Shown piece by piece: positions 24,830 through 28,723 of a stretch of 64,000 bases of DNA. The DNA is from Algoriphagus sp. (GTDB taxonomy: Bacteria > Bacteroidota > Bacteroidia > Cytophagales > Cyclobacteriaceae). The stretch spans positions 9,256 to 73,255 of the forward strand of contig JBKJKX010000047.1 of assembly GCA_046597285.1 (NCBI GenBank), read 5' to 3'. Each line of letters opens with the position of its first letter. Within the stretch, counting starts at the first letter, position 1. Position numbers and translations under genes: made by a program. The notes beneath the pieces are model-generated. The model saw nothing but the letters and a program-made list of their open reading frames with translations. It was not told the origin of the DNA and made no database searches.

Positions 24830-25534
24830 CTAAAATAGGACATAGACTTGCCAACGAAAAGCCCAATTCCAGGTAATTTTAAAATCTTGGATATTGGCTT
24901 CTAGCAAAATCCTCTCCCAATCCTGTCTTGAAAAACTCCTTAATACGGAAATAGGTGCATCATTTTGGACCATTGGAGACCGGCTAAACCAACTGGTTAA
25001 CAGTTTAATACTGTGGTAAGCCAATGGATGCCGATGAAGGTCATTGATCACTATTCCCAGTTTCGCCTTTTGGCGAAAAGCTGTCAATAAGGATACCAGT
25101 TCTGAATCCGTGAAATGATGCGTAAAAAGTGTGCAAGTCACAACATCCACCGAATCTGATGCAAATTCAGAATCAAATACGTTCTGCGTTTTCCAATTAA
25201 TTCCTGATAAATCTGACAATCGTTGTTTTGCTAGCTCGATGATATTTGGATTGGCATCAACTCCTGTAAAATCAACTTTGAAATCTTTTGAAAGAGCCCA
25301 ATCATTCATGATTCGAATCATATCTCCTCCTCCACAGCCAATATCTGCAATCGTATAGGATTGCTTAGGTTTTGCTTTGAAAAGTTTGGAAAGCCCGGAT
25401 GTAGTAACGTAGTTGCCTCCCAGCAAGCGGTTGATTGTTTTCAGCTCACGCAAAGTTTGCTCCAGGACTTCGCCGGAGCATTCAAGATCATCCATGAGTT
25501 CTTTTTCTTCACTCCTTCGATCAAATCTGCTCAT
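24830..25534 (-). CDS. SAM-dependent methyltransferase (type III PKS-associated)
   Basis: ELMDD...L.ELKTINRLLGG N-terminus, DIGCGGGD motif I, TLFTHHF, INDLHRH; 4-bp overlap with the PKS stop. Confidence 0.9.
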   Translation of the reverse strand: MSRFDRRSEEKELMDDLECSGEVLEQTLRELKTINRLLGGNYVTTSGLSKLFKAKPKQSYTIADIGCGGGDMIRIMNDWALSKDFKVDFTGVDANPNIIELAKQRLSDLSGINWKTQNVFDSEFASDSVDVVTCTLFTHHFTDSELVSLLTAFRQKAKLGIVINDLHRHPLAYHSIKLLTSWFSRSPMVQNDAPISVLRSFSRQDWERILLEANIQDFKITWNWAFRWQVYVLF

Positions 25535-26610
25535 CGCTTTTCCAGATAAAGGGTTTCCAAAGTGAGGCCCGGTCCAAATCCCAAAGACAAAATTTTTCCA
25601 GTGATTTCTACGTCTTCCATCATTCTGGACAGTACAAAAAGGATTGTTGCAGAAGACATATTTCCATATTGATTCAGCACGTCCCGTGCATGTTTATTCA
25701 CCGACGGAGGCAATTCGAATGCTTCCTGTACCTTTTGCAAAATCTGTTTACCTCCAGGATGAATTGCAAAATTCTTGATCCCGGAAAGGTTGAATTTCCT
25801 TTCAAAAACATCTCTGAGTTTTCTGATTCCTTCATCCAGTAGAGATGGAATGTATTTGCTCAGATGCATTTCAAATCCAAAATCTCCAATTCCCCAAGCC
25901 ATGTCTTCCTCACCTTCGCGCAAAACCTGGCTTAGGTAAGACTCAATAGACAATCCTTTATCTGATTTCATAATCAAGGCAGCTGCTGCCCCATCTGCGA
26001 AAAGTGAATTGGCAAGGATATTATCCTCTACATACTCTTTCTGAAAATGCAACGTGCAAAGTTCGACTGATACCAGCAATACTTTTGCTTCTGGCTCAGC
26101 ATGAAGAATTTTATCCGCAAGCTTGATTCCCGTAAAGGCCGCATAGCATCCCATGAAATGAACACAATAGCGCTCCACAGTATCACTCAGACCCAGCCTT
26201 CGCATCAACTCCAACTCAACACCCGGCGCAACCATCCCTGTACAGGAGACTAAAATTAAATGAGTAATGGAATCTGCCGTTTGACTAGATTTTTCCAAGC
26301 AATCATTGACTGCCTTTTCACATAAATCAGGTGCCTCAGCCCGAAAAATTTTCATTCTTGCCTTAGTCCCAGGGAATGGCTCTAGATTCTTATCCTTCGG
26401 AAAAAATGAAAATTCAGCAGGATCCTTTTTGGAAAAGTCATTCAATACGCTGTATCGGGTAGAAATTCCCGACATCCTGTATAAAAATCCCAGCTTTCTC
26501 CCCTCCACTTCATCAAGTTCGTGGGCTACTTTCATAAAATCCGAAATGACCGACTGCTCTATCGCCATACCTGGGTTTGCCAAGCCAATACTTACAATGC
26601 TGGATTTCAT
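25531..26610 (-). CDS. Type III polyketide synthase (chalcone/stilbene synthase family)
   Basis: Intact Cys-His-Asn triad: MGCYAA, AIHPGG, YGNMSS; also VELCTLH, FADGAAA, GFGPGLTLE. Confidence 0.96.
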   Translation of the reverse strand: MKSSIVSIGLANPGMAIEQSVISDFMKVAHELDEVEGRKLGFLYRMSGISTRYSVLNDFSKKDPAEFSFFPKDKNLEPFPGTKARMKIFRAEAPDLCEKAVNDCLEKSSQTADSITHLILVSCTGMVAPGVELELMRRLGLSDTVERYCVHFMGCYAAFTGIKLADKILHAEPEAKVLLVSVELCTLHFQKEYVEDNILANSLFADGAAAALIMKSDKGLSIESYLSQVLREGEEDMAWGIGDFGFEMHLSKYIPSLLDEGIRKLRDVFERKFNLSGIKNFAIHPGGKQILQKVQEAFELPPSVNKHARDVLNQYGNMSSATILFVLSRMMEDVEITGKILSLGFGPGLTLETLYLEKR

Positions 26611-26702
26611 GTAATCAAGTTAAAAGATAATTTCTAAATTGGAAGAACTGCTTTGTAACCTCGAGGCTAGTATAAGGTTCTTCAGAATAATATATATACG
26701 AT

Positions 26703-27602
26703 ATGATTACAAAATCGAGCCTAAAACACCTGCGCATCCTTTTCTCATTATTTCTGATGCCTGTTTTTTTCTTTGCTTTAGCTTTGACTCCGAACCTGAA
26801 CGAGCAAAGACTTCTCTATGTGTTTATTGCTATTCATTTATTTCTGTATCCCTCCAGCAATGGTTACAACAGTTATTTTGACAAAGACGAGGAAAGTATC
26901 GGAGGCTTAAAGAACCCACCCAAAGTCACACGGGATTTATATTGGCTTTCTATGTTATTCTTCCTGATTGCCATTGGACTCGGATTGCTCATCAATTGGA
27001 GTTTTGCATCGATGCTTCTTATTTATGGTTTGGTGAGCATGGCTTACAGTCATCCAATCATCCGTATCAAAAAGTATCCCTTTCTGAGTTGGTTTATCGC
27101 GGGATTTTTTCAGGGATTTTTCACCTTCGGAATGGTTTACGCTGGGATCAGCGACCTGAATTGGACTGTGATGATCAAACCTCATGTGATTATCCCGGGT
27201 CTATTAACAAGTGTGATGCTATGGGGAAGTTACCCGCTGACCCAAGTCTATCAGCATGGAGAAGATTCCAGAAGAGGAGATAGAACGCTTAGCCTAGTTT
27301 TGGGAATCAAAGGAACCTTTCTATTTGCCTCGATCCTATTTTTGATCACCGGACTTGCATTTGCCTGGTATTTCATAGAAAGAAATCAACTCGATATCCT
27401 TTGGGTCTACTTGAGTGCAATGGCTCCAATAATGGTGTTTTTCCTAATCTGGTTTAGTTTTATCCGACTGAATCCAAAAAAATACGCCAGCTATAGTTGG
27501 GCAATGGGGATGAATACCATTTCAGCTTTGGCATTGAATGCGTTCTTTATCTACTATTTCCTCGAAAACACCCAAATCCTTCAGGTTTTTGGGGCCTATT
27601 GA
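26703..27602 (+). CDS. UbiA superfamily prenyltransferase
   Basis: About 9 TM segments, first Asp-rich loop NGYNSYFDKDEESIGG, YS..P..RIK, second motif YQHGEDSRRGDRT. Confidence 0.88.
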   Translation: MITKSSLKHLRILFSLFLMPVFFFALALTPNLNEQRLLYVFIAIHLFLYPSSNGYNSYFDKDEESIGGLKNPPKVTRDLYWLSMLFFLIAIGLGLLINWSFASMLLIYGLVSMAYSHPIIRIKKYPFLSWFIAGFFQGFFTFGMVYAGISDLNWTVMIKPHVIIPGLLTSVMLWGSYPLTQVYQHGEDSRRGDRTLSLVLGIKGTFLFASILFLITGLAFAWYFIERNQLDILWVYLSAMAPIMVFFLIWFSFIRLNPKKYASYSWAMGMNTISALALNAFFIYYFLENTQILQVFGAY

Positions 27603-27607
27603 AATTA

Positions 27608-28723
27608 TTAAAAAGGCCTTCCGTGTGTATTCCTAATGATTTGCTTCGCAAAAAAAGGGATATTCTTAATCAGCTTTCTGGTTAAAACCGAAGCACTCTT
27701 TGCTCCAAAAAGATTCTGCACAATTCTTCCTACTCGTAAGCGAGTTTGAAACTCCTTTCGCCAGGCATTTTCATAGATTGATTCAATTTCCCGGCGGCTT
27801 TTACCGACAATGATAGCTTCTGCTGCCATTTTCCCCGAATGAATTGCAATCGCCATCCCGTTTCCGCAAAGTGGTGTTATCAAACCTGCGGAATCGCCGG
27901 CCATAAGAATATGATCCTCAACAGGTTTTTTTGGCTCAAAATTAATTTCATTGATTACTTCAGGCTTTTGGAAGAGAAACTCACTTTCATTAAAAAGTTT
28001 CTTGAGTACAGGGTTCTTCCAGAGAATTTCCCGCTCCATCTCTTCCACCGAGCCAAATTTGCGAAGTTGATCCCTACTTCCCAGGTAGCAAAGATTATAC
28101 TTGCCTTCCTCGATAGAATTTATGCCGCAATAGCCTCCTTCAAAATTATGGAGCGCAACGACATCTCTGGCAAAATCAGTTTTGATATGATACTTTACTC
28201 CGATATAAGGACTTCGCTTTTGAATAAATGGCCGCCCCATTACCTTATCTAACCGGGATCTTTTTCCAAAAGCTCCGATTACCTGTCTGGCCGAAACATG
28301 TGATTGATCAGAAAGCTCTAATTGAAATTCATCCGCTTTTTGATCAAAAGAATAATCTACCACCTGTATGCCAGTTCGGAATTTAACTCCAAAACCCTGA
28401 GCCTGTCTGTATATAAAATCATCCAGAACATACCGGCTGATGCCAAACCCGCCAAGGTCAAGAGGGATTTTGACATCCCCTCCCTTGGTATCTGTGAATA
28501 AAAAAAAATTGATATCCGGAAGGTCAAAATCTCCGGGCAACAAGCCCTCTCTTTCCAGAAAATCGAGCGCTTCATTGGAAATATATTCTCCACAAACGCG
28601 GTGAAAAGGATATTGCTTTTTTTCAATCAAAAGAACTTCATGGCCATTTTTGGCTAGTAAACAGGCAGAAACTAGACCCGCTAGTCCACCCCCGATCACG
28701 ATCACATCTTGTTTAGGTTTCAA
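27608..28723 (-). CDS. NAD(P)/FAD-dependent oxidoreductase (geranylgeranyl-reductase / flavin monooxygenase fold)
   Basis: GGGLAG dinucleotide motif, HRVCGEYIS, AGDSAGLITPLCGNGMAIA. Confidence 0.9.
   Translation of the reverse strand: MKPKQDVIVIGGGLAGLVSACLLAKNGHEVLLIEKKQYPFHRVCGEYISNEALDFLEREGLLPGDFDLPDINFFLFTDTKGGDVKIPLDLGGFGISRYVLDDFIYRQAQGFGVKFRTGIQVVDYSFDQKADEFQLELSDQSHVSARQVIGAFGKRSRLDKVMGRPFIQKRSPYIGVKYHIKTDFARDVVALHNFEGGYCGINSIEEGKYNLCYLGSRDQLRKFGSVEEMEREILWKNPVLKKLFNESEFLFQKPEVINEINFEPKKPVEDHILMAGDSAGLITPLCGNGMAIAIHSGKMAAEAIIVGKSRREIESIYENAWRKEFQTRLRVGRIVQNLFGAKSASVLTRKLIKNIPFFAKQIIRNTHGRPF

What the first reader, a model, noticed from the sequence alone, without database searches (positions are those of the whole stretch)
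24830..28723. Type III PKS + methyltransferase + UbiA prenyltransferase + FAD oxidoreductase: candidate uncharacterised meroterpenoid/quinone lipid pathway
Seen: four adjacent genes; PKS catalytic triad intact; PKS and methyltransferase overlap by 4 bp; UbiA keeps both Asp-rich motifs; the flavoprotein keeps its FAD motifs. Known: bacterial type III PKSs with methyltransferases and flavin hydroxylases make alkylresorcinols, alkylpyrones and alkylquinones (for example Streptomyces srsABC and Bacillus bpsAB), and UbiA enzymes prenylate aromatic acceptors. Inference: a resorcinol or pyrone ring is methylated, prenylated and oxidised to a membrane redox or antioxidant lipid. I do not know of a characterised product for this Bacteroidota arrangement, but I could not search.
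Basis: partly seen in the sequence, partly recalled or inferred. Interest (0 to 1): 0.75.

Follow-up and report, generated by a model that had tools for sequence, protein, structure and literature searches.

The report
Prenylated phenolic-lipid gene cassette in Algoriphagus
Four neighbouring genes in this Algoriphagus-like bacterium form a conserved cassette that most likely makes a methylated, hydroxylated and prenylated alkylresorcinol membrane lipid; a cluster with the same four enzyme classes is already characterised in an actinomycete, so this is a new member of a known kind.

Summary
Methyltransferase (24830-25534, -), type III PKS (25531-26610, -; ATGA overlap), UbiA-family prenyltransferase (26703-27602, +) and flavoprotein (27608-28723, -) are real, intact genes.

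Synteny within Algoriphagus proves nothing, because the flanks are conserved too. Three other results tie the UbiA to the PKS:
- The UbiA belongs to a small subfamily. In 27 of 36 distant metagenome loci it sits beside a type III PKS, in at least four gene orders, including a UbiA>PKS>MT>FAD operon.
- Only these four genes are conserved around it.
- Dyadobacter carries a natural UbiA-PKS fusion.

PKS, MT and FAD are homologous to UbiA-less PKS>MT>FAD operons in Alphaproteobacteria, the srs/pkq/hid type. All 13 cavity residues I checked are identical there.

agqABCD of Actinoplanes missouriensis (type III PKS, monooxygenase, methyltransferase, UbiA-like O-prenyltransferase) makes 6-alkyl-4-O-dihydrogeranyl-2-methoxyhydroquinones.

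Orthology to Agq proteins could not be tested, and the Bacteroidota product is unknown. PKS-less relatives of this UbiA lie in operons with cytochrome bd oxidase or next to YceI, which leaves a respiratory-quinone reading open. Interest is moderate.

The parts
24830..25534 (-). Class I SAM-dependent methyltransferase (234 aa), translationally coupled to the PKS
   Evidence: Pfam Methyltransf_25/11/31. Best NCBIfam hit is PRK06202, 151 bits, below its cut-off of 243. ATGA overlap with the PKS stop codon. 34% identical over its full length to the MT of a Paracoccus PKS>MT>FAD operon. Found in 40 loci next to the UbiA/PKS pair.
25531..26610 (-). Type III polyketide synthase (359 aa), probably an alkylresorcinol-type synthase
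   Evidence: Pfam Chal_sti_synt_N and _C. Triad C155/H284/N317. CHS G256 is replaced by W239, T197 by H188, F265 by M248. All 13 cavity positions checked are invariant in 51 PKSs, including those of UbiA-less trios. AF2 model pLDDT 88, type III PKS fold, Foldseek TM about 0.8.
26611..26702 (.). 92-bp AT-rich spacer between the divergent PKS-MT unit and the UbiA gene; presumed divergent promoter region
   Evidence: Sequence read. The role as promoter region is inferred from gene orientation only; no transcript data exist.
26703..27602 (+). UbiA-superfamily membrane prenyltransferase (299 aa) of a small PKS-linked subfamily
   Evidence: PF01040, 66.5 bits. No MenA or UbiA equivalog match. Only 787 50%-identity clusters at E<=1e-3 among 1.84 billion. 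AF2 pLDDT 93.9 with nine long helices; Foldseek best matches are AfUbiA 4tq4, DGGGPS, UBIAD1 and ApUbiA, TM 0.57-0.70. PKS adjacent in 27 of 36 distant loci. Natural UbiA-PKS fusion WP_149244224.1.
27608..28723 (-). FAD-dependent oxidoreductase (371 aa, TTG start); probable ring hydroxylase of the SrsC/PkqC/HidB/AgqB type
   Evidence: FAD_binding_3. Best NCBIfam hit is the GG-reductase superfamily TIGR02032, 122 bits, below its cut-off of 158.8. A profile search of the PDB is led by phenol/pyrrole flavin halogenases, but the WxWxIP motif is replaced by G-G-Y-C-G-I. 31% identical over 95% of its length to the FAD gene of the Paracoccus PKS>MT>FAD operon. Invariant R-V-C44-G-E.

Best explanation
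The four genes are one biosynthetic cassette for a prenylated phenolic lipid, the Bacteroidota counterpart of the actinomycete agqABCD cluster.

Proposed steps, all inferred:
1. The type III PKS primes with a fatty acyl thioester from primary metabolism. No ligase or ACP gene is linked. It adds three malonyl units and closes the ring by aldol condensation, giving an alkylresorcinol or alkylresorcylic acid.
2. The flavoprotein hydroxylates the ring.
3. The SAM methyltransferase methylates it.
4. The membrane UbiA enzyme transfers a prenyl group from a prenyl diphosphate to the resulting alkyl-methoxy-hydroquinone. By analogy with AgqD this would go onto a phenolic oxygen. Carbon prenylation is the alternative.

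The product stays in the membrane as an amphiphilic phenol or quinol lipid.

Shown here: gene identities, intact catalytic motifs, evolutionary linkage of the four genes, homology of three of them to UbiA-less PKS-MT-FAD operons.

Inferred: substrates, order of steps, site of prenylation, chain lengths, physiological role.
For: 1. Families and motifs are intact.

2. The UbiA subfamily is small. In 80 diverse metagenome loci, GC 0.31-0.70, a type III PKS lies beside it in 27 of the 36 loci that have at least 3 kb on both sides. Four or more gene orders occur: MT<PKS<|>UbiA|<FAD (12 loci), FAD<MT<PKS<|>UbiA, PKS>MT>FAD>UbiA, and a whole clade with UbiA>PKS>MT>FAD.

3. The linkage also holds with different flanks in Fulvivirga maritima and two MAG or metagenome contigs, in Runella limosa-type loci, and in high-GC contigs.

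4. Clustering of all ORFs near the UbiA shows only these four genes are conserved: 82, 59, 40 and 37 loci, against 12 or fewer for the next cluster.

5. A 652-aa UbiA-PKS fusion protein exists in Dyadobacter sp. 32, with six members from independent assemblies.

6. A Paracoccus plasmid carries PKS>MT>FAD without UbiA, with 42%, 34% and 31% identity to the three window proteins. Novosphingobium has a similar set. The PKS cavity residues are identical there, so the PKS chemistry is that of the trio systems.

7. Literature. The srsABC, pkqABC and hidABC trios make alkylresorcinol-derived methoxy-quinones or phenols (PMC9927152, PMC10896814). agqABCD adds a UbiA-like O-prenyltransferase and makes 6-alkyl-4-O-dihydrogeranyl-2-methoxyhydroquinones (PMC3227686, PMC3569393, PMC7692728). 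LosA, the PKS of a Micromonospora locus that also encodes a UbiA, a methyltransferase and a gene annotated acyl-CoA dehydrogenase, makes alkylresorcinols (PMC7587189).
Against: - There is no chemistry or expression data for any Bacteroidota cassette; no RNA run holds this sequence.
This UbiA subfamily may have been recruited independently.
- About a quarter of subfamily members have no PKS nearby, so the subfamily is not exclusively PKS-dedicated.
- The flavoprotein's best family match is the geranylgeranyl-reductase superfamily, so it might reduce the prenyl chain rather than hydroxylate the ring.
- In the window the four genes lie on both strands, so co-transcription is impossible for all four.
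Confidence: 0.7

Rival explanations
1. The cassette makes a true, C-prenylated polyketide benzoquinone that serves as a membrane electron carrier. This would be a second respiratory quinone in menaquinone-only Bacteroidota, analogous to mycobacterial polyketide quinones, with the UbiA acting like UbiA or MenA on ring carbon.
For: - Trio systems make redox-active polyketide quinones that are used in hypoxic respiration (PMC9927152, PMC5916927).
- Two PKS-less members of this same UbiA subfamily (P0284, P0345; 39-40% identity to the window UbiA) sit directly upstream of cydA-cydB and a rubrerythrin-like gene.
- Other members sit next to YceI, a family I know from memory as polyisoprenoid-binding.
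- Most characterised UbiA-superfamily aromatic prenyltransferases form C-C bonds (PMC3227686).
Against: - The only characterised enzyme in this kind of cluster, AgqD, O-prenylates. That blocks quinone/quinol cycling (PMC3227686, PMC3569393).
- A genomic and literature survey predicts or reports essentially only menaquinones in Bacteroidota (PMC13386864).
- There are no cyd genes in the window.
- The alkyl chain already anchors the ring in the membrane, so a prenyl tail is not needed for that purpose.
Confidence: 0.15
2. The UbiA gene is functionally unrelated to the PKS, for example a housekeeping quinone, haem or lipid prenyltransferase. It merely neighbours a three-gene srs/pkq-like system.
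For: - UbiA is on the opposite strand from the PKS in the window.
- Within Algoriphagus the whole region, including unrelated flanks, is syntenic, so adjacency there proves nothing.
- Trios without UbiA exist.
- JGI labels homologues MenA or UbiA.
Against: - Linkage survives rearrangement into several gene orders and into four-gene operons.
- There is a natural UbiA-PKS fusion.
- No MenA, UbiA or CyoE equivalog model matches; the best NCBIfam score is 30 bits.
- The subfamily is small.
Confidence: 0.04
3. The flavoprotein is a prenyl-chain reductase of the geranylgeranyl-reductase or MenJ type that saturates the prenyl group, rather than a ring hydroxylase.
For: - The best NCBIfam matches are GG-red-SF (122 bits, full-length) and MenJ (82 bits).
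- There is an invariant Cys in R-V-C-G-E. From memory, this resembles the catalytic Cys motif of archaeal GGR.
- The agq product carries a dihydro-geranyl chain (PMC3569393). As I recall, its reductase was not assigned.
Against: - The score is below the family cut-off of 158.8.
- The GGR YxWxFP-type motif is absent; the sequence is G-G-Y-C-G-I.
- The same protein, with the same invariant residues, occurs in PKS>MT>FAD operons that lack any UbiA gene, where there is no prenyl chain to reduce.
- SrsC-type partners are described as hydroxylases (PMC9927152, PMC8086630).
- Related GGR-like proteins can be monooxygenases: QhpG, 74 bits.
Confidence: 0.12
4. The PKS makes an alkylpyrone or a small aromatic ring (phloroglucinol- or DpgA-like) rather than a long-chain alkylresorcinol. 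The prenyl group would then supply the lipid tail.
For: - The best NCBIfam hit is DpgA, 120 bits, far below its cut-off.
- No acyl-activating gene is linked.
- Bacterial type III PKSs often give pyrones as well (PMC8086630).
Against: - The cavity residues are identical to those of the PKSs in UbiA-less trios.
- An invariant Trp sits at the CHS Gly256 position. A Trp is reported as the resorcinol determinant in ArsB, PkqA and the Streptomyces enzyme (PMC9927152), but I did not verify that the positions correspond.
- PKSs of trio operons (planctomycete enzymes, HidC) and LosA from a UbiA-containing locus all gave long-chain alkylresorcinols (PMC10896814, PMC7587189).
Confidence: 0.1

Closest known systems
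agqABCD of Actinoplanes missouriensis (Awakawa et al. 2011, ChemBioChem 12:439; a reference cluster in antiSMASH KnownClusterBlast)
   Same: The same four enzyme classes sit in one locus: type III PKS (alkylresorcinol synthase), flavin monooxygenase, SAM methyltransferase and a membrane UbiA-like prenyltransferase. The product is a prenylated alkyl-methoxy-hydroquinone lipid (PMC7692728, PMC3227686, PMC3569393, PMC10896814).
   Different: A different phylum (Bacteroidota versus Actinomycetota). In the window the genes are split over both strands. Sequence orthology to AgqA-D was not tested. The UbiA here belongs to a small subfamily remote from solved or named UbiA families. The product, the prenyl length and O- versus C-prenylation are unknown. 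Dyadobacter relatives fuse UbiA to the PKS.
srsABC (Streptomyces griseus), pkqABC (Mycobacterium smegmatis, Streptomyces sp. MNU77), hidABC (picocyanobacteria) and the planctomycete mtr-fdo-t3pks operons
   Same: A type III PKS plus methyltransferase plus FAD oxidoreductase that turn an alkylresorcinol into methoxy-alkyl-quinones or phenols. The window's three proteins are full-length homologues of a PKS>MT>FAD operon in Paracoccus, and the MT follows the PKS directly, as in srsA-srsB.
   Different: Those systems have no prenyltransferase. Here a UbiA gene is a conserved fourth member. Direct similarity to SrsA-C, PkqA-C or HidA-C was not measured.
Uncharacterised UbiA genes beside srs-like operons in Jiangella sp. 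GA3 and Micromonospora endolithica (los locus), and a prenyltransferase in the hierridin-like cluster of Raphidiopsis
   Same: A prenyltransferase sits next to a PKS-MT-flavoenzyme set. In Jiangella it is divergently transcribed from the operon, as here (PMC13608877, PMC7587189, PMC8086630).
   Different: These are only noted in passing in those papers. The family relationship of those prenyltransferases to the window's UbiA is unknown.
MenA, UbiA and UBIAD1 quinone prenyltransferases
   Same: The same nine-helix fold and two acidic motifs. JGI annotates homologues as MenA or UbiA.
   Different: No equivalog model matches. A profile search of PDB sequences gives only E = 1e-4 to 7e-4, to chlorophyll synthase and ApUbiA. 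Motif spacing differs: NSxxDxD and DxxxxD.

Membership tests
Type III polyketide synthase (CHS/STS-like) | Chal_sti_synt N- and C-terminal domains above Pfam cut-offs | tested here: met
   97 and 74.8 bits against a cut-off of 27.
Type III polyketide synthase (CHS/STS-like) | Cys-His-Asn catalytic triad and thiolase-like fold | tested here: met
   C155/H284/N317 align to CHS C164/H303/N336 and are invariant in 51 sequences. AF2 model, Foldseek TM about 0.8 to Steely1, CHS and STS.
Alkylresorcinol-synthase type (ArsB, SrsA, PkqA, HidC, AgqA) | Trp at the ArsB-281 position, which favours aldol (resorcinol) ring closure | tested here: inconclusive
   An invariant W239 aligns with CHS Gly256. The Trp rule is taken from PMC9927152. 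I could not align ArsB itself to confirm that the positions correspond.
Alkylresorcinol-synthase type (ArsB, SrsA, PkqA, HidC, AgqA) | Long-chain acyl starter and an alkylresorcinol product | not testable with these tools
   This needs an enzyme assay.
UbiA prenyltransferase superfamily | PF01040 above cut-off, and the multi-helix membrane fold of AfUbiA and ApUbiA | tested here: met
   66.5 bits against 34.2. pLDDT 93.9 with nine long helices. Foldseek matches 4tq4, 7bpu, 8djk and 4od4, probability 1.00, TM 0.57-0.70.
UbiA prenyltransferase superfamily | Two conserved Asp-rich motifs | tested here: met
   N56/D60/D62 and D188/D193 are invariant in 48 sequences. Spacing is non-canonical: NSYFDKD and DSRRGD.
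MenA or UbiA proper (quinone prenyltransferase equivalogs) | A match to NCBIfam equivalog models | tested here: not met
   Only three weak hits of 30 bits or less, to GGGP transferase and generic prenyltransferase models.
agqABCD-type prenylated phenolic-lipid cluster | Type III PKS, flavin monooxygenase, methyltransferase and UbiA-like prenyltransferase linked in one locus | tested here: met
   Adjacent in the window. Linkage is conserved across rearrangements, four-gene operons and a fusion.
agqABCD-type prenylated phenolic-lipid cluster | Sequence orthology to AgqA-D | not tested
agqABCD-type prenylated phenolic-lipid cluster | O-prenylated alkyl-methoxyhydroquinone product | not testable with these tools
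   This needs LC-MS and NMR.
srs/pkq/hid-type PKS-MT-FAD trio | All three proteins homologous to those of a contiguous PKS>MT>FAD operon | tested here: met
   Paracoccus plasmid NZ_CP040763: PKS 42%, MT 34%, FAD 31% identity, near full length. Direct comparison with SrsABC, PkqABC or HidABC was not done.
Geranylgeranyl reductase family (TIGR02032) | A score above the family cut-off | tested here: not met
   122.4 bits against a cut-off of 158.8.
Flavin-dependent halogenases (PltA, Mpy16, CmlS type) | WxWxIP motif | tested here: not met
   These give the best PDB profile hits (84-64 bits), but the aligned segment reads G-G-Y-C-G-I-S instead of W-x-W-x-I-P.

The most novel reading that the evidence does not exclude
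This PKS-linked UbiA subfamily consists of quinone-type (C-)prenyltransferases. The cassette would then give Cytophagales and other Bacteroidota, thought to rely on menaquinone alone, a second, polyketide-derived prenylated benzoquinone for respiration, for example feeding cytochrome bd. The UbiA-cydAB operons and the YceI neighbours of PKS-less relatives hint at this.
Probability: 0.15. Interest if true: 0.75.

Novelty: new member of a known kind. Interest (0 to 1): 0.38.

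Why it matters
Type III PKS regions are among the commonest orphan clusters that antiSMASH reports in Bacteroidota; they are about 11% of clusters in Flavobacteriaceae (PMC10734526) and appear with no known match in Reichenbachiella (PMC10752948).

Recognising this cassette as an agq-like, vertically inherited four-gene unit gives these orphans a concrete, testable product class: prenylated alkyl-methoxy-(hydro)quinone lipids. 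All four genes are present in 73 of the 80 Algoriphagus-type loci examined.

It also defines a compact UbiA subfamily with a clear acceptor hypothesis. The natural UbiA-PKS fusion suggests direct hand-over of the polyketide at the membrane.

If the product were a redox-active quinone, it would bear on how aerobic, menaquinone-only Bacteroidota respire. If it is an O-prenyl ether as in Actinoplanes, it is an ordinary membrane phenolic lipid.

Tried and rejected
1. Synteny in 80 genome loci found with the PKS. All were Algoriphagus or Cyclobacteriaceae, with conserved unrelated flanks (zincin, Fur, MscS, nitroreductase). I rejected this as evidence of functional linkage.

2. tblastn of the UbiA against 72,556 plasmids found no match.

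3. Sequence search of the UbiA against the PDB found nothing at E<=1. A profile search gave only marginal hits.

5. A search for RNA-seq runs that hold the locus found none; only DNA metagenomes hold it.

6. Look-ups for organism names of the UbiA>PKS>MT>FAD operon clade returned mostly unnamed metagenome proteins.

7. Literature searches for a characterised Bacteroidota cassette found none. The agq paper itself is not held, so its details come from citing papers and, where flagged, from memory.

8. I considered and rejected a halogenase function for the flavoprotein, because the WxWxIP motif is missing, and a MenA identity for the UbiA.

9. I read the 92-bp spacer by eye for promoter motifs and saw no clear match; nothing is claimed from it.

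Full report
**1. What is there**

The window comes from an Algoriphagus-like member of the Cyclobacteriaceae (Bacteroidota). The best PKS homologues are Algoriphagus proteins, and a metagenome-derived chromosome, OW818636.1, is 95% identical at the protein level.

At the stated coordinates there are four intact genes:
- a class I SAM methyltransferase, 24830-25534, minus strand;
- a type III PKS, 25531-26610, minus strand;
- a UbiA-family membrane protein, 26703-27602, plus strand;
- a flavoprotein, 27608-28723, minus strand, with a TTG start.

Pfam and NCBIfam confirm the families. The PKS stop codon and the methyltransferase start codon overlap as ATGA. UbiA is divergent from the PKS across a 92-bp AT-rich spacer and convergent with the flavoprotein gene, 5 bp apart.

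The neighbours have no obvious link to the four genes: MscS channel, nitroreductase, DUF4953 zincin, Fur and a MutS2-like protein.

**2. Motifs**

Alignment to alfalfa chalcone synthase gives the triad C155/H284/N317 and the gatekeeper F204. The cavity positions are distinctive: CHS T132/S133 become C123/T124, T194 becomes C185, T197 becomes H188, G256 becomes W239, and F265 becomes M248.

The UbiA protein keeps two acidic motifs with unusual spacing, N56-S-Y-F-D60-K-D62 and E187-D188-S-R-R-G-D193. These are invariant over 48 sequences down to 46% identity.

The flavoprotein has GGGLAG and GDSAG, plus an invariant R-V-C44-G-E.

**3. Is the UbiA gene really part of the system?**

Eighty genome loci recovered with the PKS all came from Algoriphagus or close relatives. 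They share the unrelated flanks as well, so that synteny carries no weight. It does show the cassette is vertically inherited. Of the 80 loci, 73 have all four genes, six are cut by contig ends, and one has an internally deleted UbiA.

The informative evidence came from the UbiA side. An exhaustive HMMER search of 1.84 billion cluster representatives found only 787 clusters at E<=1e-3, so this is a compact subfamily. One representative, P0296 (652 aa), is an N-terminal UbiA fused to a C-terminal type III PKS. It is WP_149244224.1 of Dyadobacter sp. 32, and five more 652-aa members come from independent assemblies.

Look-ups of members with 48-56% identity showed the MT<PKS<|>UbiA core with entirely different flanks. 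This held in Fulvivirga maritima, a JGI metagenome contig and another MAG. The flavoprotein gene was adjacent, absent, or displaced by 2.3 kb.

A metagenome scan seeded with distant, GC-rich members returned 80 loci with GC 0.31-0.70. Among the 36 loci with at least 3 kb on both sides, 27 carry a type III PKS next to the UbiA gene. The gene orders seen were MT<PKS<|>UbiA|<FAD (12 loci), FAD<MT<PKS<|>UbiA, PKS>MT>FAD>UbiA (the type found in Runella limosa), and UbiA>PKS>MT>FAD.

A neighbour-joining tree of the UbiA proteins shows the co-directional operon type forming its own large clade, with the window lying in the divergent-type clade. GC-rich contigs carry the four genes as well.

Clustering of all ORFs around the UbiA genes shows a sharp drop after four families: 82, 59, 40 and 37 loci, then 12 or fewer. 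There is no conserved fifth gene, and no acyl-CoA ligase, ACP or prenyl-diphosphate synthase.

Linkage that survives rearrangement, four-gene operons and a gene fusion together make functional coupling of UbiA and PKS very likely.

**4. Relation to known three-gene systems**

A tblastn search of the flavoprotein against plasmids found a Paracoccus liaowanqingii plasmid with a contiguous type III PKS > methyltransferase > FAD monooxygenase operon and no UbiA gene. Its proteins are 42%, 34% and 31% identical to the window's three, nearly full-length. Novosphingobium has a similar set.

All 13 PKS positions checked are identical in 51 PKSs, apart from L/I at one position and a single M-to-L change at another. 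The set includes these UbiA-less systems and the Dyadobacter fusion. The PKS chemistry is therefore expected to be the same with or without UbiA.

In the literature, this trio is srsABC (S. griseus), pkqABC (M. smegmatis, Streptomyces sp. MNU77), hidABC (picocyanobacteria) and the planctomycete operons. In each, an alkylresorcinol from the PKS is methylated and hydroxylated, giving alkyl-methoxy-benzoquinones or hierridins (PMC9927152, PMC10896814, PMC8086630).

PMC9927152 reports a Trp at ArsB position 281 (Gly in the pyrone-forming ArsC) as the resorcinol determinant. The invariant W239 at the CHS Gly256 position may be that residue, but I could not verify the correspondence.

**5. The flavoprotein**

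Its best family match is the geranylgeranyl-reductase superfamily, below the cut-off (122 bits against 158.8). A profile built from 24 sequences hits phenol/pyrrole flavin halogenases best in the PDB, then 3nix, archaeal GGR and FixC.

The halogenase WxWxIP motif, which occupies the place of the GGR YxWxFP motif, is replaced by G-G-Y-C-G-I. So the protein is neither a typical halogenase nor a typical GGR.

The same protein, with the same invariant residues, occurs in trios that lack a prenyltransferase. I therefore favour ring hydroxylation, as described for SrsC-type partners. Prenyl reduction remains a minority alternative.

**6. The UbiA protein**

AlphaFold2 with a 48-sequence alignment gives pLDDT 93.9 and nine long helices. 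Foldseek finds AfUbiA, DGGGP synthase, UBIAD1 and ApUbiA, with probability 1.00 and TM 0.57-0.70.

No named equivalog matches, and profile-to-PDB sequence hits are marginal. It is a bona fide UbiA-fold enzyme of an uncharacterised subfamily.

**7. Comparison with what is known: the decisive point**

The reference list of the loseolamycin paper led to Awakawa et al. 2011 (ChemBioChem 12:439), which describes the agqABCD cluster of Actinoplanes missouriensis. Citing papers that are held in the library state the following:
- agqA is a type III PKS for alkylresorcinols, and agqB-D are the accompanying genes (PMC7692728).
- The alkylresorcinols are subsequently prenylated and hydroxylated (PMC10896814).
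- AgqD is a membrane-bound UbiA-like enzyme that O-prenylates alkyl-methoxyhydroquinone (PMC3227686).
- The products are 6-alkyl-4-O-dihydrogeranyl-2-methoxyhydroquinones (PMC3569393).
- The cluster is a KnownClusterBlast reference (PMC8698034).

From memory of the abstract, AgqB is the monooxygenase and AgqC the methyltransferase.

The four-enzyme combination is thus a known kind. UbiA genes beside srs-like operons have also been noticed, without characterisation, in Jiangella, where the gene is divergent as here (PMC13608877), and in the Micromonospora los locus, whose PKS alone gave alkylresorcinols (PMC7587189). A prenyltransferase is also reported in a Raphidiopsis hierridin-like cluster (PMC8086630).

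I found no paper on the Bacteroidota cassette. antiSMASH tables for Cytophagales list such type III PKS regions without a known match (PMC10752948). I did not confirm that those regions are this same cassette.

**8. Mechanism proposed**

All steps are inferred. A fatty acyl thioester and three malonyl-CoA give an alkylresorcinol or alkylresorcylic acid (PKS). The ring is hydroxylated (flavoprotein) and methylated (MT). The UbiA enzyme then prenylates it at the membrane. The Dyadobacter fusion suggests the PKS works at the membrane surface next to the UbiA active site.

Whether prenylation is on oxygen, as with AgqD, or on carbon decides whether the product is a blocked hydroquinone ether or a true quinone.

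**9. What keeps the more novel reading alive**

About a quarter of subfamily members lack a nearby PKS.
- Two representatives (39-40% identical to the window UbiA) sit immediately upstream of cydA-cydB and a rubrerythrin-like gene.
- Three sit next to YceI, which I know from memory as a polyisoprenoid-binding family.
- Two sit next to a PF04240 carotenoid-biosynthesis protein.

These contexts are compatible with an isoprenoid-quinone-type function. I rate a respiratory prenyl-benzoquinone in Bacteroidota at about 15%.

**10. Verdict**

This is a new, apparently uncharacterised member of the agq/srs family of type III PKS phenolic-lipid clusters, of moderate interest. Its value lies in the defined PKS-linked UbiA subfamily and the natural fusion, which make the chemistry readily testable.

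Noticed in passing
L176:8001-11733, and a JGI contig carrying P0284 (no DNA held): PKS-less members of the same UbiA subfamily (39-40% identical to the window UbiA) lie directly upstream of cytochrome bd oxidase subunits I and II and a rubrerythrin/rubredoxin-like gene, all in the same direction. This is seen in two independent GC-rich contigs.
   Followed up: partly
L175:8001-10081; L169:3308-5665; L140: Other PKS-less members sit next to YceI-family genes. From memory, YceI is a polyisoprenoid-binding family. About five representatives (P0258, P0273, P0318, P0328, P0363) carry a roughly 200-aa C-terminal extension with no Pfam match.
   Followed up: partly
L102:7320-8870 and L111:7320-8870: A UbiA-subfamily gene is translationally coupled (4-bp overlap) to a PF04240 'carotenoid biosynthesis protein' gene. 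From memory, this resembles the lycopene-elongase/CruF pairing, and it suggests some members act on carotenoids.
   Followed up: no
P0367 (920 aa; JGI contig of 218 kb): A single protein fuses this UbiA domain to a YdbH-like (AsmA-family) intermembrane lipid-transport domain. It is a singleton cluster, so it could be a gene-calling artefact.
   Followed up: no
L061:1567-1946: One Algoriphagus-type MAG contig has an internally deleted UbiA gene: only residues 1-44 and 250-297 remain, between intact FAD and PKS genes. The contig is short and probably low-coverage, so it could be a real loss or an assembly artefact.
   Followed up: partly
L007, L016, L043, L048, L051, L057, L058, L061, L067, L069 (genome contigs record titles): Contigs whose gene content and order are plainly Algoriphagus/Cyclobacteriaceae are filed under MAGs labelled Planctomycetota, uncultured Limnohabitans, Reyranella massiliensis or Spirosoma fluviale. 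These are probably mislabelled or misbinned records.
   Followed up: no
L166:2074-7083 (Hymenobacter sp. DG01 plasmid): A 38%-identical homologue of the flavoprotein follows an isonitrile synthase and a TauD/TfdA dioxygenase on a plasmid, with no PKS. This flavoprotein family is therefore also used in an unrelated-looking pathway.
   Followed up: no
window:20267-22027 (-) and window:23234-23911 (+): Two neighbours of the cassette. One is a 586-aa membrane-anchored protein with only a MutS domain V (MutS2-like). The other is a nitroreductase-family protein with a weak BluB-like match. A nitroreductase also lies near the cassette in Fulvivirga (L081), but it is not conserved more widely.
   Followed up: partly
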